The notes under the pieces are model-generated. The model did not search any database and was not told the DNA's origin. It worked only from the letters and a program-made list of their open reading frames with translations. Positions 5,176-39,297 of a stretch of DNA of 64,000 nt are shown piece after piece. Both the position numbers and the translations under genes were made by a program. Origin of the DNA: Candidatus Poribacteria bacterium (lineage in GTDB: Bacteria; Poribacteria; WGA-4E; WGA-3G); contig OZ244821.1 in NCBI GenBank assembly GCA_965220325.1, forward strand, positions 1,179,428-1,243,427, in the 5' to 3' direction. Every line of letters starts with the position of its first letter. Position 1 is the stretch's first letter.

Positions 5176-5263
5176 ACCCAAGCATCGCGCCGGGAAACCG
5201 GATATACGGAGAAGGATATTCTTCGCAAAACTAACCTGAACGAACCGCAAGGAAATTAAAAAT

Positions 5264-6307
5264 ATGGCAAAACGAACATGTTTGATGATTGGTGGCAGTG
5301 GTATGGCAGGCGGCTGGATCCACAACTTCACGACTAATTTCAGGGACCGGATTCAGATCATCGGTCTCGCGGACGTGAATACCGATGTTCTCGCAACACA
5401 AGGCGAGGCGTTAGGACTCAGCACCTCACAACTATTCACAGACTTTAACGAGGCGTGTGCAGAGGTCAAAGCAGACTTTTGTGGCGTTGCGACCCCACCC
5501 CAATTTCACAGTCCGGCAGCAATCGCTGCTATGGAAAACGGGATGCCTGTTATCTGCGAAAAACCGATCGCGGATACCTTGGACGCAGCGAAGGCGATGG
5601 TACACACCGCACAGAAAACCGGATTACCGTGTGCAATTATCCAAAACTATCGTTACGCCAATAACAAACAGGAATTAATCCGTATCCGTGATGAAGGCAG
5701 ATTGGGACGACTTCAGCATATCGTGGGCAGATACGCGTGCGACTATCGGCGCTATCTCTCTTGGGGAAAAGAGTGGCGACACGATATGGATTTTTCACTC
5801 CTCTTTGAAGCCTCCGTTCATCATTTAGACATGCTACGGTTCCTATCCGGCGGCGATTGTGAAACGTTGATCGGATTTGGCTGGAACCCCGAATGGTCGA
5901 GCTTCCAGCACTACTCCAGCGGCCTCTATATGATGCGGATGGATAACGGCGTTCATACCGCTTATGAAGGGAATAGCTCCGCGGCCGGTATCATCAACTG
6001 CTGGAACCATGAACACTATCGCGCAGAGTTTGAGCAGGGTGCCGTCGAGATCGCAGGCGGAAACCAGATGACGATCCACCGCGTCGGCGGTGAAAGAGAG
6101 GTCTATGAGGCACCACCGATCCCCTATCACGCACATACCCATCTGTTCGATGAATTCTTGAATTGGCTTGATGGCGGCGAACCGTCTGATACTCGGATTG
6201 AGGACAACATCAAAAGCTTTGTGCTGGTCATCGCCGCAATGGAAACGAGCGTTGATGGGCAACCGAAACACATTGCTGACTATCTCAGCGACTTGAACCT
6301 TAATTAA
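5264..6307 (+). CDS. Gfo/Idh/MocA family NAD(P)-dependent oxidoreductase
   Basis: N-terminal Rossmann fold GGSGMAGGW and the EKP motif (VICEKPIADTLDAAKAM). Confidence 0.8.
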   Translation: MAKRTCLMIGGSGMAGGWIHNFTTNFRDRIQIIGLADVNTDVLATQGEALGLSTSQLFTDFNEACAEVKADFCGVATPPQFHSPAAIAAMENGMPVICEKPIADTLDAAKAMVHTAQKTGLPCAIIQNYRYANNKQELIRIRDEGRLGRLQHIVGRYACDYRRYLSWGKEWRHDMDFSLLFEASVHHLDMLRFLSGGDCETLIGFGWNPEWSSFQHYSSGLYMMRMDNGVHTAYEGNSSAAGIINCWNHEHYRAEFEQGAVEIAGGNQMTIHRVGGEREVYEAPPIPYHAHTHLFDEFLNWLDGGEPSDTRIEDNIKSFVLVIAAMETSVDGQPKHIADYLSDLNLN

Positions 6308-6412
6308 GTAGGACTTACGCATGGTAGAGATATTGATGGACGGAAGGATGGAAGGAACGGAAGGATGGCGGGACACCCCCAATCTTCCAATCTTCCAATC
6401 TTGCGTAAGTCC
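6308..6412. repeat. hairpin microsatellite element: GGACTTACGCA inverted repeats enclosing a (GGAAGGATGG)n / (CCAATCTTCC)n palindromic core
   Basis: AGGACTTACGCATGG at 6311 and CGTAAGTCC at about 6402. The interior is GGAAGG-type repeats followed by their reverse complement. The same family occurs at 33205-33335, with single arms at 25192, 29938 and 38805. Confidence 0.55.
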
Positions 6413-6427
6413 TGTTAAGTGTAAACT

Positions 6428-6736: not shown

Positions 6737-6987
6737 GGTGTGTCAATATTTCGTCAATTGTTTAGGACTTACGCATCCGGAAACCCTTTTGTAGCAAGTG
6801 GTTGTTGGTTGTTGGTAAGACAGGGCGATTTAGTTTTAAGAAATTATTGGGTTTCAGGTCTTTCTTTACAGATCCGGTTCGGTTAGGAAACCGAACCTAC
6901 CGTGCCTGGGTGGACGGTGTATTGTTAATGCGATATAAACTTTTAGAAATGGTATAACCTTACCGAACCGCAAGGAAAATTAAAAAT

Positions 6988-8328
6988 ATGGCAGTAGAAC
7001 TAAAAATGCTTCAGATGGATCAGACCATGACCAAAGGCAAAATCGGGAAATGGCTCGTTAAAGAAGGCGATACCGTCACCGAGGGACAACCCTTATTAGA
7101 GATTGAGACCGATAAGGTCGTCCATGAACAGGAGTCCCCTACCGACGGGATTATTGCCCAGATCCTTGCTGAAGAGGGCACCAATGTTCCCGTCAACGCT
7201 ATACTAGCTGTTATCGGTGCCCAAGGGGAAGAGGTTGCGCGCATTGAAGCGGACACCGCACCAGAGCAAGAGGTACAAGCGAAACCTGAACAACCGACAC
7301 CATCGCCTACCGGTGATGCACCGAAAGCCTCCCCAGCCGCGCGTCAACTTGCAGAGAAACTCGCTATCAACCTCACCGAAGTCAAACCATCCGGACCCGG
7401 TGGCCGTATCCTTGAAAGCGATGTCCAACGGTATATCGACTTGAGGGAACCGGTGCCTTCAGTTGAAACCCCGCGCCTTAAGGCATCTCCGCTCGCAAGG
7501 CGACTCGCGAAAGAGCAGGGTGTTAATCTCACTTCAATTGCCGGTTCTGGCCCCGAGGGTAGAATCGTCCGAGACGATGTGTTACAAGCCGCCAGTGCAG
7601 CCCCTGAAGTGCCTGTTGTAGAGACACCAGCGATTCAACAAGCAGCAGAAGTTATCGCTATGGACGGTATCCGCGGAATTATTGCGGAACGGATGACCCT
7701 CAGCGTTCAGACGAACGCCAGCGTCACGCTCCATACCGAGACTGACGCAACGGCACTTGTTGAATTGCGGGGGATGCTCAATGAGAAACTACAAGCAAGA
7801 GAGGTGAACATCACTTACACGGATCTGCTTGTGAAGGTCGTCGCAAACGCTTTACGGGAACATCCGCGACTCAATGCGACACTCACGGATGAAGGCATCC
7901 ATCTATTACCAGAAATTAACATCGGGGTTGCCGTCGCACTGGCGGATGGACTCGTGGTGCCGGTGGTTCGGAATGCTGATAAGGAGCGGTTATCGGAGAT
8001 TTCAGGACAGGTGAAAAATTTCGCTGAACGGGCACGGCGTAATCAACTAACACCTGGAGAACTTCAAGGTGGGACCTTTACGATTACGAATCTCGGAAAC
8101 TTCGGGATTGATGCGTTCACGCCGATCATCAATCCGCCGGAGAGTGCTATTCTTGGCGTAGGGCGGATTCTGAAGAAGCCAGTCGTCGATAACGATGAGA
8201 TTGTTATCCGAAGCATGTTGACGCTAAGTCTGACATTTGACCATCGTGTTGTAGATGGTGCACCTGCAGCGCAGTTCCTGCAAACAGTTTCTAACTATAT
8301 TCAGGATCCGTATCTGTTGTTGGTGTAG
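6988..8328 (+). CDS. dihydrolipoamide acyltransferase (E2 component of a 2-oxo-acid dehydrogenase complex)
   Basis: Lipoyl domain (LEIETDKV), two peripheral-subunit-binding domains (SPLARRLAKEQGVNLTSIAGSGPEGRI), and catalytic domain DHRVVDG. Confidence 0.85.
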   Translation: MAVELKMLQMDQTMTKGKIGKWLVKEGDTVTEGQPLLEIETDKVVHEQESPTDGIIAQILAEEGTNVPVNAILAVIGAQGEEVARIEADTAPEQEVQAKPEQPTPSPTGDAPKASPAARQLAEKLAINLTEVKPSGPGGRILESDVQRYIDLREPVPSVETPRLKASPLARRLAKEQGVNLTSIAGSGPEGRIVRDDVLQAASAAPEVPVVETPAIQQAAEVIAMDGIRGIIAERMTLSVQTNASVTLHTETDATALVELRGMLNEKLQAREVNITYTDLLVKVVANALREHPRLNATLTDEGIHLLPEINIGVAVALADGLVVPVVRNADKERLSEISGQVKNFAERARRNQLTPGELQGGTFTITNLGNFGIDAFTPIINPPESAILGVGRILKKPVVDNDEIVIRSMLTLSLTFDHRVVDGAPAAQFLQTVSNYIQDPYLLLV

Positions 8329-11513: not shown

Positions 11514-12590
11514 ATGAACGTTTCAAACATAGATCTCTACCGTTTTTTTCCATCGCCGCTGGCACACTTTCCGGACAGAAGCGCGCGGTGGTTGTTTATA
11601 GACCCAGAGAACGTTAAAGGTTTAGTAGAACTCGTCGCGGGGCGTATCGCTACCCTATTGGATTTTAGCCAACTCACAGCCCTCAACCGGGACTTTCTGT
11701 CCGACACGCTCCGTGAACAGGAAGCCGACCTCGTTTTTAGTGTCCCGTTTCGCGATACCTCAGCAGACCAAGAACTGATCATCCACATCCTCATAGAGCA
11801 TCAATCTGGGGTGGACAAAGAGATGTGGTTTCGGTTTTTAGGATATATGTATAATCTCTGGGTTGCAGAACGTCAACGGTGGACAGCGGAGGAGGTTCCG
11901 AAAGAGGAACGCCGGTTGCTTCCGATTCTCCCGATCCTCTTTTACACCGGCGATCAGTCTTGGAGCCTCCCGCTGGCTCCAACTTCACTGATGGAAATCC
12001 CAGAGATACTTGCGCCGTTTGTTCCGACGTTTAACGTACTTTTGTTGGATGTCAAACAGACTGAACCAATCGAACTGACCAAAACAGGACATCCCCTCGG
12101 GTGGTTGCTTACGGTGCTCCAAAAGGAATTATCTTCAAAAGAAGAACTTACTGAGGCCTTAGTGACAGCACTCGATAGTTTAGATACGGTGCAAACCGAG
12201 CAGCATAGACGTGCGATGATATACTTGGCATCGCTCGTATATCATCGACGCCCCCCTGAAGAACGCGATACTTTGATAAAGGTCATAGACGCGCATTCGC
12301 GTGGAATGGAGGTAAAAACCATGTTTCAATCAATGGCAGAAGTCACATTTCAAAAAGGGATAGAGCAAGGGATAGAGCAAGGGATAGAGCAAGGGATAGA
12401 GCAAGGGGAAGCCCGCGCAAAACAGGTGGCACTCCTGAAACTCTTACACCACCAATTTCAGAGCATTCCCGAAACGTTAACAACATGGATTCAGACCCTC
12501 CACGATCCTGTTCATCTTGATAGGCTCTTTGAGAAGGTTCTGAACGCGGAAAACCTTCAAGATATTGACTGGGAGACCGATGACGCGTAA
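11514..12590 (+). CDS. Rpn family recombination-promoting nuclease / putative transposase (PD-(D/E)XK, YhgA-like)
   Basis: IIHILIEHQSGVDKEMWFRFLGYMYNLW core motif. C-terminal tandem (GIEQ)x4 encoded by 12-bp repeats at 12359-12406. Confidence 0.75.
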   Translation: MNVSNIDLYRFFPSPLAHFPDRSARWLFIDPENVKGLVELVAGRIATLLDFSQLTALNRDFLSDTLREQEADLVFSVPFRDTSADQELIIHILIEHQSGVDKEMWFRFLGYMYNLWVAERQRWTAEEVPKEERRLLPILPILFYTGDQSWSLPLAPTSLMEIPEILAPFVPTFNVLLLDVKQTEPIELTKTGHPLGWLLTVLQKELSSKEELTEALVTALDSLDTVQTEQHRRAMIYLASLVYHRRPPEERDTLIKVIDAHSRGMEVKTMFQSMAEVTFQKGIEQGIEQGIEQGIEQGEARAKQVALLKLLHHQFQSIPETLTTWIQTLHDPVHLDRLFEKVLNAENLQDIDWETDDA

Positions 12591-14647: not shown

Positions 14648-14775
14648 AGTGCTCGCGATAAATATAACGACTCTTTTGTAGGAGCGAGCTGCGCTCGCGA
14701 TCTTCCTCATGCCATCGCGATCTTCCTCATGCCATCGCGATCTTCCTCATGCCATCGCGATCTTCCTCATTCCAT
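14648..14775 (-). repeat. inverted REP copy (TGTAGGAGCGAGCTGCGCTCGCGATC) plus a x4 tandem 20-mer (CATCGCGATCTTCCTCATGC) flanking the RAYT 3' end
   Basis: Reverse complement of the REP core, oriented opposite to the REP array on the other side of the RAYT gene. Confidence 0.55.
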
Positions 14776-15240
14776 CTCATATTTACATCGCCAAAATGGA
14801 TAATCCCGCGCAGCCTTTACCAATCCTGCTCTCACCGGGTTATGATAACAATATTCGATAATAGCGTTCAACGATTCATCCCGTCGAATACCGTGATCAT
14901 GGTAAGCAGGTTGCCAAATCGAACCGCTACGATCCAAACACGCATTAATCTGTTTCGCTGTGTGGCTTTTGAAGGACTGTATGAGTCTTGATAATGTTTG
15001 TTTACTGCCGAGTTGGATAACGGTGTGGATATGATCTGGCATCACACAGATACAAAACCATCTGAGTCGATCATTGGTTTCGAGCCAATCAAATGACTGA
15101 AAAATGATGTCAGCGATTTTGGGAGTTGCAAGCAGCGGTTTTTTCTTAAGTGTCGTAAGCGTGAGATAATAGTAGGTACCGGGTATGGAGTATCTGCCTT
15201 TACGGAGTTGTCGGTGTCCGCGGGTGGGTGTTCGTTGCAT
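14767..15240 (-). CDS. REP-associated tyrosine transposase (RAYT, IS200/IS605-like HuH transposase)
   Basis: 157 aa. HuH motif VMPDHIHTVIQL, SIWQPAYHDHGIR, and catalytic-Tyr region EYCYHNPVRAGLVKAARDYPFW, collinear with E. coli TnpA_REP. Flanked by inverted REPs. Confidence 0.9.
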   Translation of the reverse strand: MQRTPTRGHRQLRKGRYSIPGTYYYLTLTTLKKKPLLATPKIADIIFQSFDWLETNDRLRWFCICVMPDHIHTVIQLGSKQTLSRLIQSFKSHTAKQINACLDRSGSIWQPAYHDHGIRRDESLNAIIEYCYHNPVRAGLVKAARDYPFWRCKYEME

Positions 15241-15274: not shown

Positions 15275-15608
15275 GCCAAGATCGCGAGCACAGGGTCAAG
15301 ATCGCGAGCATAGTGCCAAGATCGCGAGCGACAAGAAACACCGTTTTTGCTTGGGCGTTTCTTGTAAGCAAAAACACTCGCTCCTACACAAGAGACGTTA
15401 GAATAATCGCGAGCACAGCTCGCTCCTACACAAGAGACGTTAGAATAATCGCGAGCACAGCTCGCTCCTACACAAGAGACGTTAGAATAATCGCGAGCAC
15501 AGCTCGCTCCTACACAAGAGACGTTAGAATAATCGCGAGCACAGCTCGCTCCTACACAAGAGACGTTAGAATAATCGCGAGCACAGCTCGCTCCTACACA
15601 AGAGGTGT
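15275..15608 (+). repeat. REP tandem array (about 7 units; five near-identical 42-bp units AATCGCGAGCACAGCTCGCTCCTACACAAGAGACGTTAGAAT)
   Basis: Direct tandem repeats with no spacers, so not CRISPR. The first units carry a 45-bp insertion in the hairpin loop identical to that in copy 21497. Confidence 0.65.
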
Positions 15609-24093: not shown

Positions 24094-25191
24094 ATGAAAA
24101 TTCGAGATATTAAAGTCTATCAAGTGGATCTGCCGCTTTATGAAGGCAGCTACAACTGGTCCGGCGGAAAATCTGTTTCCGTTTTCGACAGTACGATTGT
24201 CTCCGTTGAAACAGACGAAGGTATTACCGGCTACGGTGAAGTCTGTCCGTTGGGACCGTTCTATCTGCCTGCTTACGCCACCGGTGCACGTACCGGTATC
24301 GCTGAACTTGCACAGCACCTCATCGGTGAAGACCCGACGCAACTCCTCCCGCTCAACCGACAGATGGACATCGCACTCAAGGGGCATCCGTACGTGAAAT
24401 CTGCAATCGACATGGCGTGCTGGGATATCCTCGGGAAAGCTTCAAACGCATCTATCTGCACGCTTCTCGGTGGGCGGTATGGCGAGGACTTCATGCTCTA
24501 TCGCGCGATCTCACAGGAATCGCCTGACGAGATGGCGGCGAAGGTTGCAACTTACCGGGCGGAGGGGTACCGTAAATTCCAGTTGAAAGTCGGCGGGGAT
24601 CCAAATACCGATATCGAACGTATCCACGCTGTCGCCGAGTTGATGGAATCGGGAGATGTGCTGATCGCGGATGCAAACACGGGGTGGTTGATGCACCAAG
24701 CTGCTCGCGTCGTCCGAGGTGTGAGCGATGTGGATGTCTATATCGAGCAGCCCTGTCTCTCATACGAAGAGTGCCTCGCCATCCGTCAGCGGACCGACCA
24801 CCCCTTTGTTCTCGATGAGACCATCGACGGCATCCACGCCTTATTACGCGGTCATGCCGACCGGGCGATGGATGTTGTGAATATCAAGATTAGCAAATTC
24901 GGCGGATTGACCAAAGCGAAACTCGCCAGAGACCTCTGCGTTGAACTCGGCGTAGCGATGACGATTGAAGACAGCTGGGGCGGCGATATTACAACCGCCG
25001 CGATTGCGCATCTGGCACACAGCACACCGCCAGAATTCCTTTTCACAGCGACGGATTTCAACAGTTATGTCACTGTCAGCACGGCGGAAGGCGCGCCGCA
25101 ACGGGTTAACGGCAGGATGGCAGCGTCAACGCAACCAGGTTTGGGGATTACACCGAAGATGGGGGTGTTGGGTGAAGAGCGGAAGAGGTGA
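24094..25191 (+). CDS. mandelate racemase/muconate lactonizing enzyme family (enolase superfamily) protein
   Basis: MR/MLE N-terminal capping domain plus barrel with metal-ligand region. 365 aa. Confidence 0.8.
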
Positions 25192-25270
25192 AGAGGGAAG
25201 GATGGAAGGCGGAAAGATGGAAGAGGGGAGGATGGAAGACCGGAGGATGGAAGAGGGGAGGCGGGAAGTT

Positions 25271-28046: not shown

Positions 28047-29144
28047 TCAATTGTCTTTTCGCAGCAGCATTGGAGACGTGAGGTCCCATAGGCGGACGGT
28101 GCCATCTTTACTGCCGCTCGCGAGCGTTACGCCATCCGGACTGAAAGCGACACTCTTAACAGGTGCCGTGTGCCCTGCAAGGGTCGCAATGTGCTTGCCG
28201 GCGGCAATATTCCAGAGTCGGATTGTCTTGTCCTCGCCACCACTTGCCAGCGTTAATCCATCCGGACTGAAGGCAACACTCCACACAACGGATGTATGCC
28301 CTATAAAGATTTTCAGTTGCTGCCCTGTGGTCGTATCCCAAAGTCGGATTGTCTTGTCCCAACTCCCACTCGCGAGTGTCCGTCCATCTGGACTGAAAGC
28401 GACACTAAAGACCCAATTCGTGTGCCCAATAAGCGTTTTCAATTTCTCACCGGTATCAATATCCCACAAACAGACGCTGTTTCCTGCATCGCCACTCGCT
28501 AACGTTTTGCCGTCGCTACTGAATGCGACGCTGAAGATGTTCTCGGTATCCTCAATCAGTGCTTTCAACCGTTTACCTGTTTCTACGTCCCATAGATAGA
28601 GATTCCCATCCTCGCTGCCACTTGCGAGTATCTTGCTATCCGTGCTGAATGCGACAGTATTGACCCAATGCAAACCATTCGGGGCATTTTCTTTCATTGA
28701 CCTGAGCAGCTCGCCGGTAGCAGCGTCCCAGAGGCAAATTACCTCACTTTCATCAATGCCACCTGCGATCATCTGTCCATCCGGACTAAAAGCGACGCTG
28801 TTAATATTCGCAGTGAAGTTCCGTTGAAAAGCCACCCAGAAATTTGCCGCCAATTTGATCTCTTCTCCCGTGACAGCATCCGAGAGTCGGACGGTGTTCT
28901 CCTTGTCACTGGCAACTATTGAACCATCCGGGCTAAACACAACGCTGTGGATGCCTCTCTTGACGGCTAAATCAATCGTGATATGAGACAGATCGGGCAC
29001 GAAAGTTGGTTCCATAGTGGATTTCTCCTTTTGGGTTGCGTCTTCAGATTCCACGGGTGCCACCCCAGTCAATATCAAAAATGTTATGATCATCGTAAAG
29101 ATGATGCCCCAAAAATTAGCTCTGCTGATAGTTGTATAAATCAT
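28047..29144 (-). CDS. WD40-repeat protein with N-terminal signal/TM segment
   Basis: At least 7 WD repeats (LASGSWDKTIRLWD, LASGGEDKTIRLWN, LASGSKDGTVRLWD). ATGA start/stop overlap with anmK. Confidence 0.75.
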   Translation of the reverse strand: MIYTTISRANFWGIIFTMIITFLILTGVAPVESEDATQKEKSTMEPTFVPDLSHITIDLAVKRGIHSVVFSPDGSIVASDKENTVRLSDAVTGEEIKLAANFWVAFQRNFTANINSVAFSPDGQMIAGGIDESEVICLWDAATGELLRSMKENAPNGLHWVNTVAFSTDSKILASGSEDGNLYLWDVETGKRLKALIEDTENIFSVAFSSDGKTLASGDAGNSVCLWDIDTGEKLKTLIGHTNWVFSVAFSPDGRTLASGSWDKTIRLWDTTTGQQLKIFIGHTSVVWSVAFSPDGLTLASGGEDKTIRLWNIAAGKHIATLAGHTAPVKSVAFSPDGVTLASGSKDGTVRLWDLTSPMLLRKDN

Positions 29145-30511
29145 GGCAGTACAAACTTTCCGAGGATTTTCCGAACAGATGCCCCTGTCGCTGAAGGCAG
29201 GTTCCCCGCATTTCCGTGGAGCGTCTCATTCGCCAGAATCGCGAACGCGATCGCCTCCTTCGCATCCGCTGAGATACCAGAGGTGTTCACAGGTTCAACT
29301 GTCGTGTTTTCCAATACTTCGCTCAACCGTTGCATGAGGGTCTGATTGTGGACACCGCCGCCACTCACATAAAGCACGTCTATCGGATTTTGTCCCGCTA
29401 TAAATTGTGCGATGTAGCCGGTAATCGTTTGGACCGTCAACTCGGTCAGTGTCGCGATGCAGTCGTTATCTGAAAGTGTGCGCTTCCGGCAAGCTGTGAG
29501 ACATTCCATCGCATAATTGCGTCCAAACATCTCACGTCCAGTCGTTTTTGGCGGTGGCAGATGGAAAAACGGGTGCTTCAACCATTCGTCAATGATCGGT
29601 TGGTGCGGCGTACCCTGCGCGGCACGCTGCCCCGCTGCGTCATACCGTTCTGTCCCTTCCGTGATCTCTGTTATGACAGCGTCAATACACATATTGCCGG
29701 GCCCCGTATCCGCGGCACAGACAGTATCGAATGCGCCATTTGCCGGAAGCACCGTGAGATTCGCAATCCCGCCGATATTCAAGAGTCCGACTGTTTCAGT
29801 GCTGTTGTGGAACAGCAGATAATCTGGGTATGATACCAACGGTGCACCTTGTCCGCCTGCTGCCATATCCGCGACGCGGAAATCCGCTATCGTTGGAATC
29901 CCTGTTTCGTGTGCAATGACTGCAGGCTCCCCAATCTGCAATGTCGATGACAGGGTGGAAGGGTGGAAGGGTGGAAGGGTGGAAGGGATTGGAAGGGATT
30001 GGAAGGATGGAAGGGCGGAAGGATGGGGGGGATTGGAAGGGTGGATGGGTGGAAGGGTGGAAGGGATTGGAAGGGATTGGAAGGATGGAAGGGCGGAAGG
30101 ATGGAGGGGATTGGAAGGATGGAAGGGTGGAAGGGTGGAAGGGATGTTTGGGTCTTTCGGGAGGTGATGGATCGTTTGGCCGTGTGAACCGATGAGGTCA
30201 ATATCGCTGGTAGACATTTCGCTTTTTTGTAGGATGTGTTTAACTGCCTCAGCGAAGAGGTATCCGATATAGAAATTCATTTCACAGATGTCGTCAACAC
30301 GACCCGTATCGGGTTGACAGAGCGCAAGGATACGTTGTGGCACGCCAGATGGAAACGGAACAGTCTCAAAAGCGATCAGGTCTACTTTAGTTTCCAAACC
30401 GTGTCCGACAATTTCGACAATAGCAGCATCAATGCCGTCAACTGAGGTACCGGACATTAACCCGATAACCAATTTTTTATCTTTCTTGAGAAGTTCAAAA
30501 AAATGTTTCAT
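29141..30511 (-). CDS. anmK: anhydro-N-acetylmuramic acid kinase with an in-frame roughly 65 aa Pro-rich repeat insertion
   Basis: GLMSGTSVDGIDAAIVEI..., GSHGQTIHH..., TLQIGEPAVIAHETGIPTIADFRVADMAAGGQGAPLV are collinear with E. coli AnmK. The insert TLPPFHPSNPLHPSALPSFQSLPIPS... is encoded by CCTTCC repeats. Confidence 0.85.
   Translation of the reverse strand: MKHFFELLKKDKKLVIGLMSGTSVDGIDAAIVEIVGHGLETKVDLIAFETVPFPSGVPQRILALCQPDTGRVDDICEMNFYIGYLFAEAVKHILQKSEMSTSDIDLIGSHGQTIHHLPKDPNIPSTLPPFHPSNPLHPSALPSFQSLPIPSTLPPIHPSNPPHPSALPSFQSLPIPSTLPPFHPSTLSSTLQIGEPAVIAHETGIPTIADFRVADMAAGGQGAPLVSYPDYLLFHNSTETVGLLNIGGIANLTVLPANGAFDTVCAADTGPGNMCIDAVITEITEGTERYDAAGQRAAQGTPHQPIIDEWLKHPFFHLPPPKTTGREMFGRNYAMECLTACRKRTLSDNDCIATLTELTVQTITGYIAQFIAGQNPIDVLYVSGGGVHNQTLMQRLSEVLENTTVEPVNTSGISADAKEAIAFAILANETLHGNAGNLPSATGASVRKILGKFVLP
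29938..30172. repeat. (GGAAGG[GA]TGG)n microsatellite block lying inside the anmK reading frame
   Basis: GGGTGGAAGGGTGGAAGGGTGGAAGGGATTGGAAGG... on the plus strand. Same repeat family as 6337-6400, 25192-25268, 33215-33300 and 38805-38850. Confidence 0.6.
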
Positions 30512-30765
30512 CTGCTAAAAGTTGTCAGTTGTCAGTACGATTTTTTTCTGCGAAAAAAATCTTTCAGTTGTCAGTAGTTTTCAGTTTTCAGTACGGTTTT
30601 TCTGCGAAAAACCTTTCAGTCGTCAGAAAGAGACTTGTGGAACTATCACAACCCTCTTTTAACTGATAACCGATAACCGAAAGGAATCGTACCCGATTCC
30701 GTACTGATAACCATTCCCTCTGATAACTGACAACTGATAACTGACAACTATTTCCTCTGATAACT
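30510..30765. repeat. CAGTTGTCAGT / CTGATAACTGACAA simple repeats in the anmK-namZ intergenic region
   Basis: Multiple direct and inverted copies. A similar tract is at 39296-39340. Confidence 0.4.
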
Positions 30766-30769
30766 ATTT

Positions 30770-31969
30770 TTACTGGTAAACGTGATACTGTGTTGCGCGG
30801 TCTTGCCACTTTTGAAGGTCTGGCATCCACTGTCCCTGAATGGAATCCACTGAATTCCGGTTTGATAGTGCTTCTCGGAGCCACGTGTTGCCTGCCAATC
30901 TATCGAAATGTGATGCTTTGAACGCGAACTGGTCGCTGTATTCGGTGGTTAGGGTAGATAGCATCTGAACGGCTGTCTCTATCGGACGGAAACGTTCTCT
31001 GTCGGTAATATGGATTGCGACACCGTGGCAGGTCTGTTTCGCGTATTTTGTGGTCTCGGACACAGGGGCGGGTGTAAAGACAACGGAACGAAAGCGAACC
31101 CCCGGCAGTCGGCAGTCGTTGAGGTGTCCTGCCCATTTTTCGCCGTTGCACCAAGGCGCGCCGATATATTCAAACGGCTTTGTCGTGCCGCGTCCTTCGC
31201 TCATATTCGTCCCTTCAAATAGACATAAACCGGGATAGAGTGTCGCGGTCGTCAGCGTCGGCATATTCGGTGAGGGCGGCACCCACGGCAAGCCGGTATC
31301 ATCGAACCCCATCGCCCGCTTGTACCCGTGCATCCACGCAACTTTTAACTGACAAGACGGCACGCGCTCCGCTTTTAATAGCCTCGCCAATTCGCCGATT
31401 GTCAACCCGTAACGGATCGGTATCTGGTGTATTCCAACAAATGATTCAGACCCACTTTCCAATACCGGTCCCTCTACAGCATTACACGCAATCGGATTCG
31501 GTCGGTCGGCAACGATGAACGCAATCCCACAGTCCGCGGCGGCTTCCATCGCATACAGCATCGTCGAAATATAGGTGTAATAACGCGCCCCGACATCTTG
31601 CATATCGTAGACCAATACGTCTATGCCTTCAAGTTGATTCGCTGTCGGACGCATCGATTGCCCATATAGACTCAAAACCGGCACATTTATTGAATTTTTG
31701 TCATTGACACCGATACCGTTCGGATTTTTGTTGATAGCAATGCCATCTTGTACTGCACCCCAGAGTCCATGCTCTGGCGTGAAAATCGCGGAGAGTCGGC
31801 ACCCCGGCACTTCTGCGAAAAGCCGATAGTTGTTTTGTAAGGTGGCATCGACACCGGTGTGATTTGTAATAAGTCCGATGGATTTCCCGTGAATCCAGTC
31901 GCGTTTCTCAGTGCGTAGGACGCTTAACCCTAATTCGACGAGTGTTTGAGAATGTGTTGTAGTAGACAT
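30770..31969 (-). CDS. DUF1343 family exo-beta-N-acetylmuramidase (NamZ-like)
   Basis: IGLITNHTGVDATLQNNYRLF...LSAIFTPEHGLWGAVQDG is typical DUF1343/YbbC. Confidence 0.7.
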   Translation of the reverse strand: MSTTTHSQTLVELGLSVLRTEKRDWIHGKSIGLITNHTGVDATLQNNYRLFAEVPGCRLSAIFTPEHGLWGAVQDGIAINKNPNGIGVNDKNSINVPVLSLYGQSMRPTANQLEGIDVLVYDMQDVGARYYTYISTMLYAMEAAADCGIAFIVADRPNPIACNAVEGPVLESGSESFVGIHQIPIRYGLTIGELARLLKAERVPSCQLKVAWMHGYKRAMGFDDTGLPWVPPSPNMPTLTTATLYPGLCLFEGTNMSEGRGTTKPFEYIGAPWCNGEKWAGHLNDCRLPGVRFRSVVFTPAPVSETTKYAKQTCHGVAIHITDRERFRPIETAVQMLSTLTTEYSDQFAFKASHFDRLAGNTWLREALSNRNSVDSIQGQWMPDLQKWQDRATQYHVYQ

Positions 31970-31971
31970 AT

Positions 31972-33264
31972 CTATATAGTGTACACGATGTTGTGGAACA
32001 TCCTCCGAAAGTCGATGATACCGCGCCGGTCAGCATCAGGGTGCACCCGATTTGTCAGCAGGATAGCCGCGAGTTTCCTTTTCAGGCATATCCGTATTGA
32101 GGTACCGGTGAATCCTGTATGATAGAGACACCCATCGTCTGTTACGATCCAACCGATACAACGGCGTTCTCCTTCCGCTGAAACGACTTGACGCATCGTG
32201 TTAAGACTCTCCGGCCGCAATAAACCGTTTCCGCCGCTATCCATCAACGCTTTACAAAACTTTCCGAGGTCTGTTGACGTAGAAAAGAGACCTGCGTTTC
32301 CTGAAATCCCGCCGAGGAAATGTGCGTTTTCGTCGTGTACCTGTCCGATAATCACGCCTTCGCGCCAGTCGTAGCGTTCGTAGTTGACCATCCGACGTTC
32401 AAAACTGTTTGAATCCTCAGTCGCTGCACAATTCTTATGCCATTCCTGCGGTGGATTGAACCGCGTCCACTCCATACCGAGCGGCGCGAAAATCCGCTCT
32501 TCTGATAGTTCGTCAAGCGACTGTCCTGTTACCCTTTCAAGCAATTTACCGAGTACGATATACCCTAAGCAGCTATACACCGTCTTTTCTCCGGGTTGAG
32601 ATGCCAAAGCGATCTGACCGAGGTAAGAGACAACCCGCTCACGAGATTCCGCCCGTAGATAGAGCGGTATCCATGCCGGGAGTCCAGAGGTATGCGCCAG
32701 CAGGTGTGTGAGCGTTACGCCCTTCTGTCGGAATTCCGGCAGATATTCCTGCACCGGTCTACGCAGTGAAAGTTCACCGCTTTCAACGAGTTGCATGCAA
32801 AGTGTTCCGACAACAATAGGTTTTGTCAGCGATGCTAAGTCAAAGAGTGTCCTGCGAAGCATCGGGAGGCGTTTCGGTTTTACGCATCGGAAGCCGAACG
32901 CTTCATGGTAAATCACTCGCTCGCTAGTGAGAATGTATGCAACAGCTCCGGGGAACACCTTTTCCGAAATGCTATTTTGAATAAGTGTCGAAATCGTATT
33001 TTTAATTATTGGCCTCCGTACATCGTTCCACTTCGTTTCACGATGGTTTCTGATCAAGGACGCAACACAAGTAGAAACAAACACATCGGAAATAACCAAA
33101 AACCTGCTCGAAATGTAATGGAGAGCAGAAAAAGTACCTCTAATTATTGGCCTCCGTACATCGTTCCACTTCGTTTCACGGCAGAAAAAGAGCCAATATC
33201 TTAAATAGGACTTAGGCAAAAGTGGAAGAGTGGAAGAGTGGAAGAGTGGAAGGTGTCCTTCCAT
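31972..33264 (-). CDS. beta-lactamase-fold serine hydrolase (AmiE/YbbE-like, probable MurNAc-peptide amidase); start uncertain
   Basis: SxxK motif LASLTKP. N-terminal FPGAVAYILTSERVIYHEAFG. Coupled to namZ with a 2 nt gap. The first 90 or so codons of the track ORF are repeat-derived (GGAAGG block plus a 40-bp direct repeat). Confidence 0.55.
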   Translation of the reverse strand: MEGHLPLFHSSTLPLLPKSYLRYWLFFCRETKWNDVRRPIIRGTFSALHYISSRFLVISDVFVSTCVASLIRNHRETKWNDVRRPIIKNTISTLIQNSISEKVFPGAVAYILTSERVIYHEAFGFRCVKPKRLPMLRRTLFDLASLTKPIVVGTLCMQLVESGELSLRRPVQEYLPEFRQKGVTLTHLLAHTSGLPAWIPLYLRAESRERVVSYLGQIALASQPGEKTVYSCLGYIVLGKLLERVTGQSLDELSEERIFAPLGMEWTRFNPPQEWHKNCAATEDSNSFERRMVNYERYDWREGVIIGQVHDENAHFLGGISGNAGLFSTSTDLGKFCKALMDSGGNGLLRPESLNTMRQVVSAEGERRCIGWIVTDDGCLYHTGFTGTSIRICLKRKLAAILLTNRVHPDADRRGIIDFRRMFHNIVYTI

Positions 33265-33335
33265 CCTTCCGTTCCTTCCATCCTTCCGTTCCTTCCATCC
33301 TTCCGTCCATCAATATCTCTACCATGCGTAAGCCC
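33205..33335. repeat. hairpin microsatellite element (GTGGAAGA)n-(TTCCATCCTTCCG)n bounded by AGGACTTAGGCA / TGCGTAAGCCCT
   Basis: Reverse-complement arrangement of the 6308-6412 element, including TAGAGATATTGATGGACGGAAGG. Confidence 0.55.
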
Positions 33336-33438
33336 TGTTAAAATTAGTTGACTGAGATACTACCTATATGATACACTATTTCTCGTATTTTTGTCAGCAA
33401 CTTTTGATACATGCAAGCCGCCGCCCAGGGAATCAATC

Positions 33439-37372: not shown

Positions 37373-38803
37373 ATGGAAACTTTTTTGATTGTAGACGACG
37401 AAAAAAATATACTTAAGATGTTATCCCTAGGGCTCGAAATGCGGGGGTATCAAACCTTGACAGCTGCGAGCGGTGAGGAAGCTTTGCAGCAAGCGATGAA
37501 ATCTGATGTTGACCTCGTTCTGTTGGATATCCGTATGGAGGATGGTATGGACGGCGTCCAGACGCTCGTCAAACTCCGTGAACGTTATCCTGAATTGAAC
37601 GTCGTGATGATGTCCGCGCAGCAAGATATTGAAATCGCTGTTAAAACGATGGAACTCGGCGCGAAACGGTACATCACGAAGCCGATCGATATTGATAAGA
37701 TTTTGTCGAGTGTCCAACCGTTTTTGGAGATATCGCGCTTATCGCAAGAGAATGAGATCCTGAAGTCTCAAATTGTCCGTATTGATGAGATGGTCGGAGA
37801 AAGTACGGCTATCAAGCACCTCCGTTCACAGATTAATCGGGTCGCTGGTAGTAGGCTCGGTGTCCTTATCTCTGGCGAGAACGGTACCGGCAAGCAGCTT
37901 GTCGCCAATGCTATCCATGAAAAAAGCGAACGTGCAGCGAAAACCTTTATTCCGCTCAATTGTGCTGCTTTGCCAGATGAACTCATTGAGAGCGAACTCT
38001 TCGGACATGAGCGCGGCGCATTCACAGGGGCGGATTCCCGTAGGCAGGGACGTTTTGAACTCGCGGACGGTGGCACCCTTTTTCTTGATGAGATCGGCGA
38101 TATGAGTTTAAAGGCACAAGCGAAGGTCCTTCGCGTGATTGAAACCGGTGAAGTCGAACGTCTCGGCGGCAATCAGATTCGCACTGTAGATGTACGGATT
38201 ATCGCTGCGACGAACAAAAATCTGCCGGAAGAGATTGAGAACGGACGGTTCCGACGGGACCTCTTCTATCGGTTGAATGTTGTCCCTATTGCGGTGCCGC
38301 CGCTTCGCGAACGCACGGAGGATGTTCCATCATTAGTCAAGTACTTCGCCGAGCGCCTGCAGCTCAATATGGCATCTACGCCGAAGGCTATTGATCCGGG
38401 TGCTTACGCCGTGTTTCAAAGTTACCATTGGCCCGGGAACATCCGAGAGTTAAAGAACATCGTTGAACGCCTCCTTATTATGGTGAACCGAGATGTTGTG
38501 ATGGCACCCGATGTTGCAGAGGCTTTGTCTCTGGTGCCGCAAGTGCCTTCTTCACCGAATTTTGACGGTGATACGACGGAGTATCACGGTTCGCAGGCTC
38601 TACCGAACTCGGTACTTTACAAACCCGGAACCCCGTTGAGTCAGATGATGGATACCGCCGAGGCGCAGTGTATTCTCACGGCTTTGGAAGAATTTAACTG
38701 GAATATCCGACGGACAGCGGAAGCATTAGAGGTTGAACGGAGCAACTTGTACAAAAAAATGAACAAGTACGGTATCTCCCGACCAAATTCCGAGGAAGGA
38801 TAG
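37373..38803 (+). CDS. sigma-54-dependent Fis-family response regulator (NtrC-like)
   Basis: Receiver domain (LLDIRMEDGMDG). AAA+ region GENGTGKQLVA, GAFTGA-type ERGAFTGADSRRQGRFELADGGTLFLDEIGDM. C-terminal HTH. Confidence 0.85.
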   Translation: METFLIVDDEKNILKMLSLGLEMRGYQTLTAASGEEALQQAMKSDVDLVLLDIRMEDGMDGVQTLVKLRERYPELNVVMMSAQQDIEIAVKTMELGAKRYITKPIDIDKILSSVQPFLEISRLSQENEILKSQIVRIDEMVGESTAIKHLRSQINRVAGSRLGVLISGENGTGKQLVANAIHEKSERAAKTFIPLNCAALPDELIESELFGHERGAFTGADSRRQGRFELADGGTLFLDEIGDMSLKAQAKVLRVIETGEVERLGGNQIRTVDVRIIAATNKNLPEEIENGRFRRDLFYRLNVVPIAVPPLRERTEDVPSLVKYFAERLQLNMASTPKAIDPGAYAVFQSYHWPGNIRELKNIVERLLIMVNRDVVMAPDVAEALSLVPQVPSSPNFDGDTTEYHGSQALPNSVLYKPGTPLSQMMDTAEAQCILTALEEFNWNIRRTAEALEVERSNLYKKMNKYGISRPNSEEG

Positions 38804-38862
38804 AGATTGGAAGATTGGAAGATTGGAAGGGTGGAAGAGGGGAAGAAAGGTAGATCGGAACG

Positions 38863-39297
38863 ATGCTAAGGAAGCACATTAGTGAAAATGGTGGGATGAC
38901 TCGCCTTCAATTGCTTATTCTGGTTGTTTTAACAGCTGTGATTGGTGGGCTCTCGTTTCCACCATGGCTAGAGTATCGTAAGGTCGGGACAGCGGATGTC
39001 GATGTGGAAACGATTGCCGTTGCTATCAAGAAATACCATAGGCATACCGGCAGTTATCCGACGCGTCTGGACGCACTCGTGACGGACCCCGGCCTCGAAG
39101 GATGGCGTGGGAATTATCTCGAATCTATCCCTGAAACACCGTGGGGTGGCAGCTACGTCCTGTTTCAAGACAGGTATAAAGTCGGGATAGCGAAAGATCA
39201 CCGGCGTGTCCCCGAAAAATATCGAGTCGGCGGCGTTGCGGAGATCAGTCGAGTCTATCATGTCGACGCGCCCCTCGGTGAGAAATATTGGTGGTAA
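38863..39297 (+). CDS. type II secretion pseudopilin GspG-like protein
   Basis: Short leader ending ...ENGG, then hydrophobic MTRLQLLILVVLTAVIGG. GspG-like core (YPTRLDALVTDP...TPWGGSY). Position +5 is Q rather than E. Confidence 0.55.
   Translation: MLRKHISENGGMTRLQLLILVVLTAVIGGLSFPPWLEYRKVGTADVDVETIAVAIKKYHRHTGSYPTRLDALVTDPGLEGWRGNYLESIPETPWGGSYVLFQDRYKVGIAKDHRRVPEKYRVGGVAEISRVYHVDAPLGEKYWW

What the first reader, a model, noticed from the sequence alone, without database searches (positions are those of the whole stretch)
29938..30172. In-frame roughly 65-residue proline-rich insertion in AnmK, generated by the GGAAGG repeat
- **Collinearity.** AnmK is collinear with characterised enzymes except between ...HGQTIHHLPKDPNIPS and TLQIGEPAVIAHETG...
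- **Insert.** There the CCTTCC-type repeat encodes TLPPFHPSNPLHPSALPSFQSLPIPS x roughly 2.5. The reading frame is preserved and the downstream catalytic regions are intact.
- **Interpretation.** Either the enzyme tolerates a large surface-loop insertion, and possibly gained a PPII-type interaction module, or this is a very recent insertion on its way to pseudogenisation.
Basis: partly seen in the sequence, partly recalled or inferred. Interest (0 to 1): 0.5.

Follow-up and report, generated by a model that had tools for sequence, protein, structure and literature searches.

The report
Variable repeat insert in AnmK gate loop
A sponge-symbiont (Poribacteria) cell-wall recycling enzyme, AnmK, carries a real, in-frame, about 60-residue proline-rich loop encoded by a short DNA repeat that also litters the genome's intergenic regions. 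The loop differs in length between strains but the enzyme looks functional, so this is a tolerated piece of selfish or slippery DNA rather than a dying gene.

Summary
**Observation: confirmed.**
- ORF 29141-30511 (-) is an AnmK, with the catalytic Asp, the Glu shown in the P. aeruginosa active site and the ATP motifs all kept.
- Residues I123-S189 (29945-30145) are encoded by an array of 8-10-bp CCTTCC-type units.
- The array is organised as a 78-bp (26-codon) unit x2.4.

**Where it sits.** It lies in the turn of the beta5-beta6 hairpin. In P. aeruginosa AnmK that hairpin helps gate the anhMurNAc site. AlphaFold2 models the insert as disordered on an intact AnmK fold.

**Not an isolated or dying gene.**
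- Two strains with 97-98% identical anmK have the same array 60 and 96 bp shorter. All length differences are multiples of 3.
- dN/dS outside the array is 0.09-0.17.

**The loop is a hotspot.**
- Across 57 Poribacteria genomes it is always in frame but ranges from 7 to 67 residues.
- It holds several unrelated inserts. One is a MITE-like element with 19-nt terminal inverted repeats that also occurs upstream of genes.
- The window's array looks like one arm of a GGAAGG/CCTTCC hairpin element, expanded by tandem duplication.
- Similar arrays lie in at least four intergenic spots of the window.

**Verdict.** This is an RPE-like in-frame repeat insertion that also varies in copy number between strains. 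There is no support for a selected PPII module or for pseudogenisation. Interest is moderate.

The parts
29141..30511 (-). anmK coding sequence (456 aa), anhydro-N-acetylmuramic acid kinase family
   Evidence: ORF list. Pfam PF03702 at E 8.5e-103. PDB AnmK and levoglucosan kinase hits. AlphaFold2 model matches 8bre and 3cqy at target-normalised TM 0.81-0.83.
29945..30145 (-). In-frame repeat-encoded insert, residues I123-S189. On the coding strand it is a pyrimidine-rich array of CCTTCC-type 8- and 10-bp units.
   Evidence: Stop-free in all six frames. No hairpin potential: dG 0.0.
29956..30033 (+). 78-bp higher-order repeat, copy 1
   Evidence: Tandem Repeats Finder period 78. 76/78 identical to copy 2.
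30034..30111 (+). 78-bp higher-order repeat, copy 2
   Evidence: A 60-bp gap spanning parts of copies 1 and 2 separates the window from strain L081.
30112..30145 (+). Partial third copy (34 bp)
   Evidence: 32/34 identical to the start of copy 2.
30158..30187 (-). Codons for S109-P118 (SHGQTIHHLP). This is the conserved beta5 side of the gate hairpin, just upstream of the variable turn.
   Evidence: Invariant S109, H110, G111, Q112, T113 in the family alignment. Aligns to P. aeruginosa residues 93-102.
29927..29944 (-). Codons for T190-E195 (TLQIGE). This is the conserved beta6 side of the gate hairpin.
   Evidence: Invariant T190, Q192, G194. Aligns to P. aeruginosa T107-N112.
33224..33304 (.). 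Intergenic copy of the same repeat as a hairpin, at the 5' end of the beta-lactamase-fold/namZ/anmK gene string. GGAAG x4 is followed by CCTTCC x6.
   Evidence: The same arrangement is present in strain L081.
25181..25254 (+). Intergenic GGAAG-type array ending about 17 nt before the ATG at 25272
   Evidence: The syntenic array in L081 is shorter, 47 bp.
38794..38846 (+). Intergenic GGAAG-type array ending 16 nt before the ATG at 38863
6310..6413 (.). Intergenic element. A GGAAGG arm (6342-6364) and a CTTCCAAT arm are bracketed by the inverted pair AGGACTTACGCA / TGCGTAAGTCCT.
6962..6987 (+). Copy of the right terminal repeat (ACCGAACCGCAAGGAAAATTAAAAAT) of the MITE-like element that fills the same AnmK loop in other Poribacteria. 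Here it directly abuts the ATG of ORF 6988-8328.
   Evidence: Blastn of loop DNA against the window. Sequence. Terminal inverted repeats shown in L031, L038 and L019.
5239..5263 (+). Second copy of that terminal repeat, abutting the ATG of ORF 5264-6307
30770..31969 (-). namZ (exo-beta-N-acetylmuramidase), immediately upstream of anmK. It gives the peptidoglycan-recycling context.
   Evidence: Pfam NamZ_N and NamZ_C. Same order in L081-L086.

Best explanation
The insert is an in-frame stretch of repeat DNA inside a working anmK gene of a Candidatus Poribacteria sponge symbiont.

**Origin (inferred).** A dispersed repeat element entered the turn of the beta5-beta6 hairpin of AnmK in an ancestor. 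The element was normally intergenic and consisted of a GGAAGG/CCTTCC hairpin core plus an RBS-like terminal repeat. In the window's lineage only the CCTTCC arm is left.

**Growth (shown as allele differences; mechanism inferred).** The arm then grew by slippage or unequal recombination, most recently by duplication of a 78-bp (26-codon) block. Strains now differ in array length, so this is a copy-number-variable repeat inside a coding sequence.

**Why it survives.**
- The array has no stop codon in any frame.
- Selection removes variants that shift the frame.
- The host site is a naturally length-variable, mobile, solvent-exposed turn.
- The encoded Pro/Ser-rich 67 residues are predicted to be a disordered extension of that hairpin.

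**Function.** Catalytic residues, fold and purifying selection are intact, so the enzyme most likely still phosphorylates anhMurNAc next to NamZ. The peptide itself is most likely a passenger without a selected function. Its position at the sugar-site gate means it could alter substrate access.
For: **Identity and integrity of the gene**
- Pfam AnmK match and PDB alignments.
- D268 aligns to the catalytic Asp182 of P. aeruginosa AnmK. E419 aligns to Glu326, shown in that enzyme's active site. Both are invariant in the family alignment.
- The phosphate-1 motif and the GGG motif are kept.
- The AlphaFold2 model has pTM 0.69. The core is mostly at pLDDT 75-95, while residues 115-191 are at pLDDT 30-41 with no secondary structure.
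- Foldseek gives target-normalised TM 0.81-0.83 to the AnmK structures 8bre and 3cqy.
- Conserved order beta-lactamase-fold / namZ / anmK.

**Site of the insert**
- The P. aeruginosa beta5-beta6 hairpin (residues 96-110) gates the anhNAM subsite together with loop 229-241 (PMC10570956).
- The alignment places the insert in the turn of that hairpin.
- The turn varies from 7 to 30 aa even outside the insert-bearing clades.

**Variation between strains and selection**
- The window, L081 and L082 are 97-98% identical in anmK.
- Their loop segments (SHGQTI to TLQIGE) measure 225, 165 and 129 bp. The gaps are 60, 18 and 18 bp, all multiples of 3, although the units are 8-10 bp.
- dN/dS outside the array is 0.09-0.17.
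- All 57 loci of the Poribacteria clade from a frame-agnostic genome scan read through the loop in frame.

**Origin as a dispersed repeat**
- GGAAGG arrays lie at four or five other sites in the window, intergenic or at gene starts.
- There is a graded series among the closest relatives:
  - P0004: full hairpin plus tail, dG -54.9, from a 6.35-Mb contig.
  - P0014: a shorter hairpin plus tail.
  - P0006: CCTTCC arm plus tail.
  - P0003: tail only.
  - Window, P0001 and P0002: arm only, expanded.
- The 'tail' is the right terminal inverted repeat of a MITE-like element. That element has 18-19-nt terminal repeats, intergenic copies and in-loop copies.
- The same tail DNA is read in two frames in different lineages, as HRTARNIK or TEPQGKIK. 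This points to conservation of the DNA, not of the peptide.

**Tolerance**
- The array is stop-free in all six frames.
Against: - Descent of the window's array from the hairpin-plus-tail element is inferred from a series among relatives. The window copy has neither the GGAAGG arm nor the tail, so an independent in-situ origin is not excluded. The native ...CCNTCNACNCTG (PSTL) codons resemble a repeat unit.
- The neighbour-joining tree of a highly conserved protein does not resolve whether loop states arose by repeated insertion, by loss, or by recombination between alleles.
- Only three alleles of this array are available. Two of them were retrieved through intact proteins, which biases against seeing frameshifted alleles.
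- No reads, expression data or enzymology are available.
- AlphaFold2 confidence is moderate because the alignment is shallow.
- No target-site duplication was identified.
Confidence: 0.75

Rival explanations
1. Contingency locus. The 8-10-bp units make the array a slipped-strand switch that turns AnmK on and off by frameshifting within the population.
For: - The units are not multiples of 3.
- Array length differs between 97-98% identical strains.
- Syntenic intergenic arrays also differ in length.
Against: - All three alleles are in frame, and every gap is a multiple of 3.
- The dominant recent event is a 78-bp, 26-codon duplication.
- AnmK is a cytoplasmic housekeeping enzyme, not the surface or restriction-modification type of gene that is usually phase-variable (my own knowledge).
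- dN/dS of 0.09-0.17 shows sustained selection on the full-length product.
Confidence: 0.07
2. Adaptive module. The Pro-rich segment was selected as a polyproline-II or eukaryote-like interaction peptide, or as a lid that changes substrate gating of AnmK.
For: - The insert sits at the tip of the hairpin that gates the sugar subsite.
- The frame is maintained.
- Poribacteria are known for eukaryote-like repeat proteins (PMC3909097, title and abstract only).
Against: - The same loop in relatives holds unrelated peptides: basic, acidic or hydrophobic, from 7 to 67 aa.
- The same DNA occurs in intergenic regions.
- In other bacteria the same array is translated in-frame in either orientation inside GlyQS and HypF linkers.
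- The tail DNA is read in two frames.
- The array is stop-free in all frames, so in-frame survival needs no peptide-level selection.
- A search with the insert peptide found no conserved protein motif.
Confidence: 0.1
3. Assembly artefact. The array, or its length, was created by mis-assembly of a low-complexity repeat.
For: - A 190-bp array of 8-bp units with 97% identical 78-bp copies is hard to assemble from short reads.
- The exact window protein is not on record elsewhere.
Against: - The same array sits at the same codon in two independent assemblies, an ENA metagenome scaffold (L081) and NCBI GCA_022820105.1 (L082), with shared internal landmarks.
- Related element inserts at this site occur in megabase-scale contigs, one of whose names ends in '_c', which I take to mean circular.
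- The window's array is in frame.
Confidence: 0.05
4. Nascent pseudogene. The insertion has already inactivated AnmK and the frame is intact only because too little time has passed.
For: - A 67-residue disordered segment at a functional gate could impair catalysis.
- The last duplication is very recent: the copies are 76/78 identical.
Against: - dN/dS is 0.09-0.17 among three array-bearing strains.
- All catalytic and nucleotide-binding motifs are intact.
- Long inserts at this site persist across lineages down to about 87% core identity.
- 57 of 57 Poribacterial loci are in frame.
Confidence: 0.03

Closest known systems
Rickettsia palindromic elements (RPEs) inserted in-frame in protein-coding genes (Ogata et al. 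2000; summarised in PMC10969869)
   Same: - Short dispersed repeat elements occur both between genes and in-frame inside unrelated housekeeping genes.
- They insert at sites compatible with the protein fold.
- The encoded peptide is a passenger.
- Relatives of the window carry hairpin-forming or inverted-repeat-bearing copies in the AnmK loop.
   Different: - The window copy is not palindromic (dG 0). It is a one-armed tandem array of 8-10-bp units that changes copy number between strains.
- Several unrelated element types occupy one and the same loop of one protein across a phylum.
- The host is Poribacteria, not Rickettsia.
- There is no sequence similarity to RPEs (my own knowledge; not tested).
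[quoted passage not shown] ERIC, Correia, cyanobacterial MITEs (review PMC10969869)
   Same: - The class E inserts in the same AnmK loop (L038, L019) have 19-nt terminal inverted repeats: TTTTAATGATTCCTCGCGG / CCGCAAGGTAAAATTAAAA.
- They are 86-179 bp long.
- Intergenic copies occur in related genomes.
- The window has two right-terminal-repeat copies abutting start codons.
   Different: - In the window's anmK no terminal inverted repeats and no target-site duplication are present.
- No transposase partner was identified.
- The right terminal repeat regularly ends exactly at start codons like an RBS module. This is not a general MITE property.
Intragenic tandem repeats (VNTRs) and contingency loci in bacterial genes (my own knowledge; see also PMC2996958 on repeat-coding sequences, seen only in the search listing)
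   Same: - A tandem array inside a coding sequence.
- Copy number differs between near-identical strains.
- The higher-order unit (78 bp) is a multiple of 3.
   Different: - The host is a cytoplasmic enzyme rather than a surface protein.
- The basic unit is 8-10 bp, yet no out-of-frame allele was seen.
- The array belongs to a dispersed intergenic repeat family rather than arising from the gene's own sequence.
STRR (short tandemly repeated repetitive) heptamer sequences of heterocystous cyanobacteria (my own knowledge)
   Same: - Very short (7-8 bp) units in tandem.
- Dispersed over many intergenic sites of one genome.
- The window also has heptamer arrays (AGTTGTC, CTGACAA, ACCAACA) in its spacers.
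   Different: - Different phylum and different unit sequences.
- STRRs are not, to my knowledge, described as in-frame inserts in enzymes.
AnmK of P. aeruginosa and E. coli, and levoglucosan kinase of Lipomyces (PDB 8bre, 3qbw, 3cqy, 4zxz)
   Same: - Same fold and motifs, same catalytic Asp, and the Glu that aligns to Glu326.
- Same beta5-beta6 hairpin framework.
   Different: The hairpin turn is 5 residues in P. aeruginosa, about 12 in levoglucosan kinase, 14-18 in most Poribacteria and 71 in the window.

Membership tests
AnmK / levoglucosan kinase family (Pfam PF03702, ASKHA fold) | Profile match above the curated threshold over the whole domain | tested here: met
   344.7 bits against a cut-off of 24. 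The two stretches together cover the profile on both sides of the insert.
AnmK / levoglucosan kinase family (Pfam PF03702, ASKHA fold) | Catalytic Asp (P. aeruginosa Asp182), the Glu326 shown in that active site, the phosphate-binding GxMSGTSxDG loop and the GGG adenosine motif | tested here: met
   D268, E419, G17-D28 and G384-G386 are invariant in the family alignment and align to the P. aeruginosa residues.
AnmK / levoglucosan kinase family (Pfam PF03702, ASKHA fold) | Two-domain ASKHA fold | tested here: met
   The AlphaFold2 model (pTM 0.69) matches 8bre and 3cqy at target-normalised TM 0.81-0.83.
AnmK / levoglucosan kinase family (Pfam PF03702, ASKHA fold) | anhMurNAc kinase activity | not testable with these tools
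   Only context is available: namZ lies immediately upstream.
RPE-like in-frame dispersed repeat | Copies of the same repeat dispersed at other, mostly intergenic, sites of the genome | tested here: met
   Arrays at 6342-6364, 25181-25254, 33224-33304 and 38794-38846. 24 matches of the 15-mer against 0.13 expected.
RPE-like in-frame dispersed repeat | In-frame insertion in a housekeeping gene at a structurally permissive site, with the gene still under selection | tested here: met
RPE-like in-frame dispersed repeat | Palindromic (hairpin-forming) element | tested here: not met
   The window copy has dG 0.0 and no inverted repeat. The feature is met only in relatives: P0004 -54.9 and P0014 -35.1 kcal/mol.
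MITE | Terminal inverted repeats flanking the inserted copy | tested here: not met
   None around 29945-30145. Present in class E loop inserts of L038 and L019 and in intergenic copies in L031.
MITE | Target-site duplication | tested here: inconclusive
   The flanks of L038, L019 and L031 copies were inspected by eye. No clear duplication was seen, and no systematic analysis was done.
Phase-variable contingency locus | Repeat unit not a multiple of 3, with length polymorphism between strains | tested here: met
   Units of 8 and 10 bp. Loop segments of 225, 165 and 129 bp.
Phase-variable contingency locus | Existence of out-of-frame (OFF) alleles | tested here: not met
   3 of 3 alleles are in frame, with gaps of 60, 18 and 18 bp. 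The sample is small and partly biased.
Intragenic VNTR | Tandem unit that keeps the frame, with copy number varying between close strains | tested here: met
   78-bp unit x2.4. The window has 60 bp more than L081 and 96 bp more than L082.

The most novel reading that the evidence does not exclude
**Proposal.** The beta5-beta6 gate hairpin of Poribacterial AnmK is a genuine 'landing pad' where mobile or slippery intergenic DNA repeatedly creates strain-specific lids over the anhMurNAc site. This would diversify substrate access or regulation of cell-wall recycling in the sponge host.

**RNA-level variant.** Alternatively, or in addition, the repeats act in RNA. The anmK mRNA carries about 20 CCUUCC (anti-Shine-Dalgarno-like) units. 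These could pair with the GGAAGG arrays that sit just upstream of start codons elsewhere, including at the 5' end of its own beta-lactamase-fold/namZ/anmK gene string. That would form a repeat-based translational control network.

**A further observation.** The G-rich template strand also holds the only three canonical G-quadruplex motifs in the 64-kb window.
Probability: 0.07. Interest if true: 0.75.

Novelty: new member of a known kind. Interest (0 to 1): 0.4.

Why it matters
**If correct, it shows three things.**
- An uncultivated sponge-symbiont phylum carries families of short intergenic repeats: octamer arrays, and MITE-like elements whose end doubles as a ribosome-binding module.
- These repeats repeatedly end up translated inside a conserved enzyme, as Rickettsia palindromic elements do.
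- One particular turn, the substrate-gate hairpin of AnmK, absorbs 7 to 75 residues without loss of selection on the gene.

**Practical consequences.**
- It is a natural experiment on loop tolerance in the ASKHA fold.
- It warns annotators that such inserts are neither frameshifts nor assembly errors.
- It offers a possible strain marker, because the array length varies between strains of Poribacteria.

It does not by itself reveal a new biochemical function.

Tried and rejected
- **First AlphaFold2 run.** With 30 near-identical sequences it gave mean pLDDT 48, too poor to use. A 55-sequence alignment gave a usable model.
- **Profile search for alignment diversity.** A second search of the 5.8-billion-protein set returned almost only Poribacteria again.
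- **Insert peptide alone.** Searching the 66-aa insert peptide found nothing at E <= 1e-3. I could therefore not census other proteins carrying it that way.
- **Exact window protein.** It is not on record.
- **Left-junction DNA pattern.** It had no match in JGI metagenomes, so there is no population sample of alleles.
- **Generic array pattern.**
  - It hit at least 120 contigs from many habitats.
  - This shows the octamer array is not lineage-specific, but the hits were too heterogeneous to analyse fully.
  - Only two clear in-frame cases, GlyQS and HypF, were verified.
- **Rfam.** No match anywhere in the window at gathering thresholds.
- **Promoter and terminator scan.** Nothing above chance around the locus.
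- **Literature.** A search for the repeat sequence found no paper.
- **Loop history.**
  - A neighbour-joining tree of loop-deleted AnmK did not resolve whether loop states reflect repeated insertion, loss or recombination.
  - I make no claim on the number of insertion events.
- **Intein or intron readings.** I considered these but did not pursue them. Pfam finds only the AnmK domain, and the segment is a simple repeat.
Full report
**1.

- The window carries a 456-codon ORF on the minus strand, 29141-30511.
- It matches Pfam AnmK (PF03702) at E 8.5e-103, in two stretches separated by the region in question.
- Against solved levoglucosan kinase and AnmK structures the protein aligns on both sides of a segment of about 60 residues that has no counterpart. 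Query 15-125 and query 187-453 abut at chain residues 128-130 of 4zxz.
- On the plus strand that segment is a G/A-rich array. Tandem Repeats Finder reports 29956-30145 as a 78-bp unit x2.4 at 96% identity, built of about 22 units of 8 bp.
- The two full 78-bp copies are 76/78 identical.
- The motif is far above chance: 24 matches against 0.13 expected.
- On the coding strand the array reads CCTTCC-type units of 8 and 10 bp. It encodes I123-S189 (29945-30145), which is 67 residues with 31% Pro and 21% Ser.

**2. Organism and context**

- The best homologues are AnmK proteins of Candidatus Poribacteria, sponge symbionts.
- The gene follows a beta-lactamase-fold gene and namZ (exo-beta-N-acetylmuramidase). 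This order is conserved in relatives, so the context is peptidoglycan recycling.

**3. Where the insert sits in the protein**

- A short-loop Poribacterial AnmK (P0012) aligns continuously to P. aeruginosa AnmK (8bre; chain index equals native numbering plus 5).
- That alignment places the variable segment between ...SHGQTI(R/H)H and T(V/L)QIG. This is the turn of the beta5-beta6 hairpin, residues 96-110 in P. aeruginosa.
- A 2023 structural and molecular-dynamics study describes this hairpin, together with loop 229-241, as the mobile gate of the anhMurNAc subsite (PMC10570956).
- The insertion is therefore in a loop and not in the core. It is at a functionally relevant, highly mobile tip.
- The family alignment shows the turn is length-variable everywhere, from 7 to 30 residues in 80 genomes.
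- An AlphaFold2 model from a 55-sequence alignment has pTM 0.69.
  - It gives a confident core.
  - Residues 115-191 have pLDDT 30-41 and no secondary structure.
  - The model superposes on AnmK structures at target-normalised TM 0.81-0.83.
- D268 aligns to the catalytic Asp182 and E419 to Glu326, which the P. aeruginosa study displays in the active site. The phosphate loop and the GGG motif are also conserved.

**4. The gene is alive and the array varies between strains**

- Two independent assemblies carry anmK at 97-98% nucleotide identity with the same array at the same codon. They are L081 (ENA metagenome scaffold) and L082 (GCA_022820105.1).
- Their loop segments are shorter: 165 and 129 bp, against 225 bp in the window.
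- The gaps are 60, 18 and 18 bp. All are multiples of three, although the units are 8-10 bp.
- Outside the array, pairwise dN/dS is 0.09-0.17.
- This rejects pseudogenisation. It also shows the array exists independently of this assembly, although the window's own copy number cannot be checked without reads.

**5. The loop is a phylum-wide hotspot**

In 120 homologues and in 57 genome loci of the Poribacteria clade, the loop is always open and in frame but ranges from 7 to 67-68 residues. The genome loci came from a tblastn-based, frame-agnostic scan. The loop states fall into several classes:

- A common short form, KD(T/A)NTD.N.SRYPS.
- A 'tail-only' form, ..PHRTARNIKKPS.
- A basic 45-51-residue form, ..KTRSLERSGKRVYGNGHET...RTARNIKKPS.
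- An AT-rich hairpin form, ..ETIFCHRQKMSKNPIFKKS, with dG -34 kcal/mol.
- A heptamer-array hairpin form in L007, with dG -40 kcal/mol.
- A form with LFTEPQGKIKIPS, with or without long inserts.
- GGAAGG/CCTTCC hairpin forms, such as KGIGMEAWKHGRVGPQPSRLPPLQPLPTARNIKKPS.

The DNA CACCGAACCGCAAGG.A..ATTAAAA is read as HRTARNIK in some lineages and as TEPQGKIK in others. What is conserved is therefore the DNA, not the peptide.

**6. These inserts are copies of intergenic elements**

- Blastn of loop DNA against all held sequence found copies outside anmK.
- The long inserts in L038 and L019 are bounded by 19-nt terminal inverted repeats, TTTTAATGATTCCTCGCGG / CCGCAAGGTAAAATTAAAA.
- Elements with the same terminal inverted repeats lie in intergenic regions of L031. 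One ends 2 nt before the anmK start codon.
- The shared 'tail' of the loop inserts is therefore the right terminal repeat of a MITE-like element.
- In the window the same repeat abuts the ATG of two genes, at 5239-5263 and 6962-6987.
- The octamer arrays themselves are dispersed in the window:
  - 25181-25254 lies just upstream of a start codon.
  - 38794-38846 also lies just upstream of a start codon.
  - 33224-33304 is a GGAAG/CCTTCC hairpin at the head of the beta-lactamase-fold/namZ/anmK string.
  - 6342-6364 sits inside a pair of AGGACTTACGCA inverted repeats.

**7. Likely history of the window's insert (inference)**

By identity of the loop-deleted protein, the nearest relatives form a series:

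| Relative | Core identity to window | Loop content |
|---|---|---|
| P0001 / P0002 | 97.9% / 97.1% | CCTTCC arm only; 55 / 43-aa loop |
| P0003 | 95.8% | tail only |
| P0004 | 92.9% | full GGAAG arm + CCTTCC arm + tail; dG -54.9; on a 6.35-Mb contig |
| P0006 | 90.0% | CCTTCC arm + tail; on a 6.24-Mb contig whose name ends in '_c' (which I take to mean circular) |

- P0004 and the window translate the arm in the same frame (..PPFHPSTLPP..).
- The simplest reading is one ancestral insertion of a hairpin-plus-terminal-repeat element.
- The G-rich arm and the tail were then lost in the window's lineage.
- The remaining arm expanded in tandem, and the 78-bp duplication is the latest step.
- An in-situ origin from the native PSTL codons cannot be excluded.

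**8. Why it is tolerated**

- The array is free of stop codons in all six frames, so it can only harm by shifting the frame.
- The site is a mobile, exposed turn.
- The encoded Pro/Ser-rich peptide is predicted to be disordered.
- The same octamer array is not restricted to this lineage. An exact 23-mer hit at least 120 metagenome contigs.
- In two of those contigs it is translated in-frame in bona fide proteins.
  - One is at the GlyQ/GlyS junction of a fused glycyl-tRNA synthetase.
  - The other is HypF, where a GGAAGG/CCTTCC hairpin occurs twice: between the HypF zinc-finger region and the Sua5/YrdC domain, and within the HypF_C region.
- This supports the passenger-peptide reading and argues against a selected PPII module.

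**9. Comparison with known systems**

- The behaviour matches Rickettsia palindromic elements, which are dispersed repeats found in-frame in housekeeping genes at permissive sites (PMC10969869).
- It also matches intragenic tandem repeats whose copy number varies between strains.
- The window copy fails the palindrome and terminal-inverted-repeat tests. I therefore do not file it as a MITE or an RPE copy, but as a tandem-array remnant of such an element.
- It has the unit length and the polymorphism of a contingency locus, but no out-of-frame allele was seen.
- I found no paper describing these repeats in Poribacteria.

**10. Verdict**

- The 'tolerated loop' reading is supported. The refinement is that the loop is the substrate-gate hairpin.
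- The 'PPII module' and 'pseudogenisation' readings are not supported.
- It is a new example of a known phenomenon.
- The more interesting wider pattern is a phylum-wide insertion hotspot, plus element ends that double as RBS-like sequences.
- Interest is moderate, 0.4.

Noticed in passing
L031:636-939 and 3804-3998; L038:4357-4535; L019:4357-4442; window 5239-5263 and 6962-6987: A MITE-like element with 18-19-nt terminal inverted repeats (TTTTAATTATNCCTTGCGG / CCGCAAGGTAAAATTAAAA). Its right end regularly stops at or within 2 nt of a start codon, giving AAGG plus a 9-11-nt AT-rich spacer plus ATG. It looks like a mobile ribosome-binding module. In L011 the in-loop copy even supplies an in-frame ATG.
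   Followed up: partly
L056:4955-5082 (also L053): A second in-frame repeat insert in anmK of other Poribacteria, at a different loop just before the xIDxLYVSGGG strand. It is a 33-bp unit x3.9 containing a GAGACC..GGTCTC palindrome, and it encodes VGETSRSRCNT repeats.
   Followed up: partly
L173 (array near 1117-1205) and L128 (arrays near 2879-2944): In unrelated metagenome contigs (GC 0.58-0.62) the same octamer array is translated in-frame in two proteins. One is at the GlyQ/GlyS junction of a fused glycyl-tRNA synthetase (..LLPSTLPPFHPSTLPPFHPSTLL..). The other is HypF, where a hairpin occurs twice (..EWKGGRVEGWNDDAIQSSNLPVFQ..).
   Followed up: partly
window 29953-29997, 30025-30075, 30125-30161 (+ strand): The only three canonical G-quadruplex motifs (G3+N1-7, four runs) in the whole 64-kb window lie inside the insert. 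They are on the template strand of anmK.
   Followed up: no
window 30512-30770: The anmK-namZ spacer is packed with heptamer arrays (AGTTGTC, AGTTTTC, TAACCGA, CTGACAA/CTGATAA). They are arranged as mutually complementary blocks, including a 52-bp unit x2. This is a second family of short-unit repeats, reminiscent of cyanobacterial STRRs.
   Followed up: no
window 33224-33304 / ORF 31972-33264 (-): The listed start codon of the beta-lactamase-fold ORF lies inside the GGAAGG/CCTTCC hairpin (MEGHLPLFHSSTLP...), and the Pfam domain starts only at residue 94. Either the true start is further downstream or this N-terminus is also repeat-encoded. L081 has the same arrangement.
   Followed up: partly
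window 6310-6413; also 1169, 6764, 26239, 33207, 33325: The 12-mer AGGACTTACGCA recurs: five exact copies and two one-mismatch copies. At 6310-6413 (exact) and at 33207-33336 (one mismatch per arm) it forms an inverted pair bracketing a GGAAGG/CTTCC core. This may be another small element family.
   Followed up: partly
window 15377-15604; 57047-57650; 12355-12407; 14695-14776: Other strong tandem repeats were not examined. They are a perfect 42-bp unit x5.4, a 66/132/198-bp periodic array x9 inside the 1462-codon ORF 56284-60672, and 12- and 20-bp perfect arrays.
   Followed up: no
window 29141-29144: The anmK stop overlaps the start of the downstream WD40 beta-propeller gene (28047-29144, -) by 4 nt. 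That suggests translational coupling. In strains L081 and L082 a different gene follows anmK: 322 aa, with no Pfam match.
   Followed up: no
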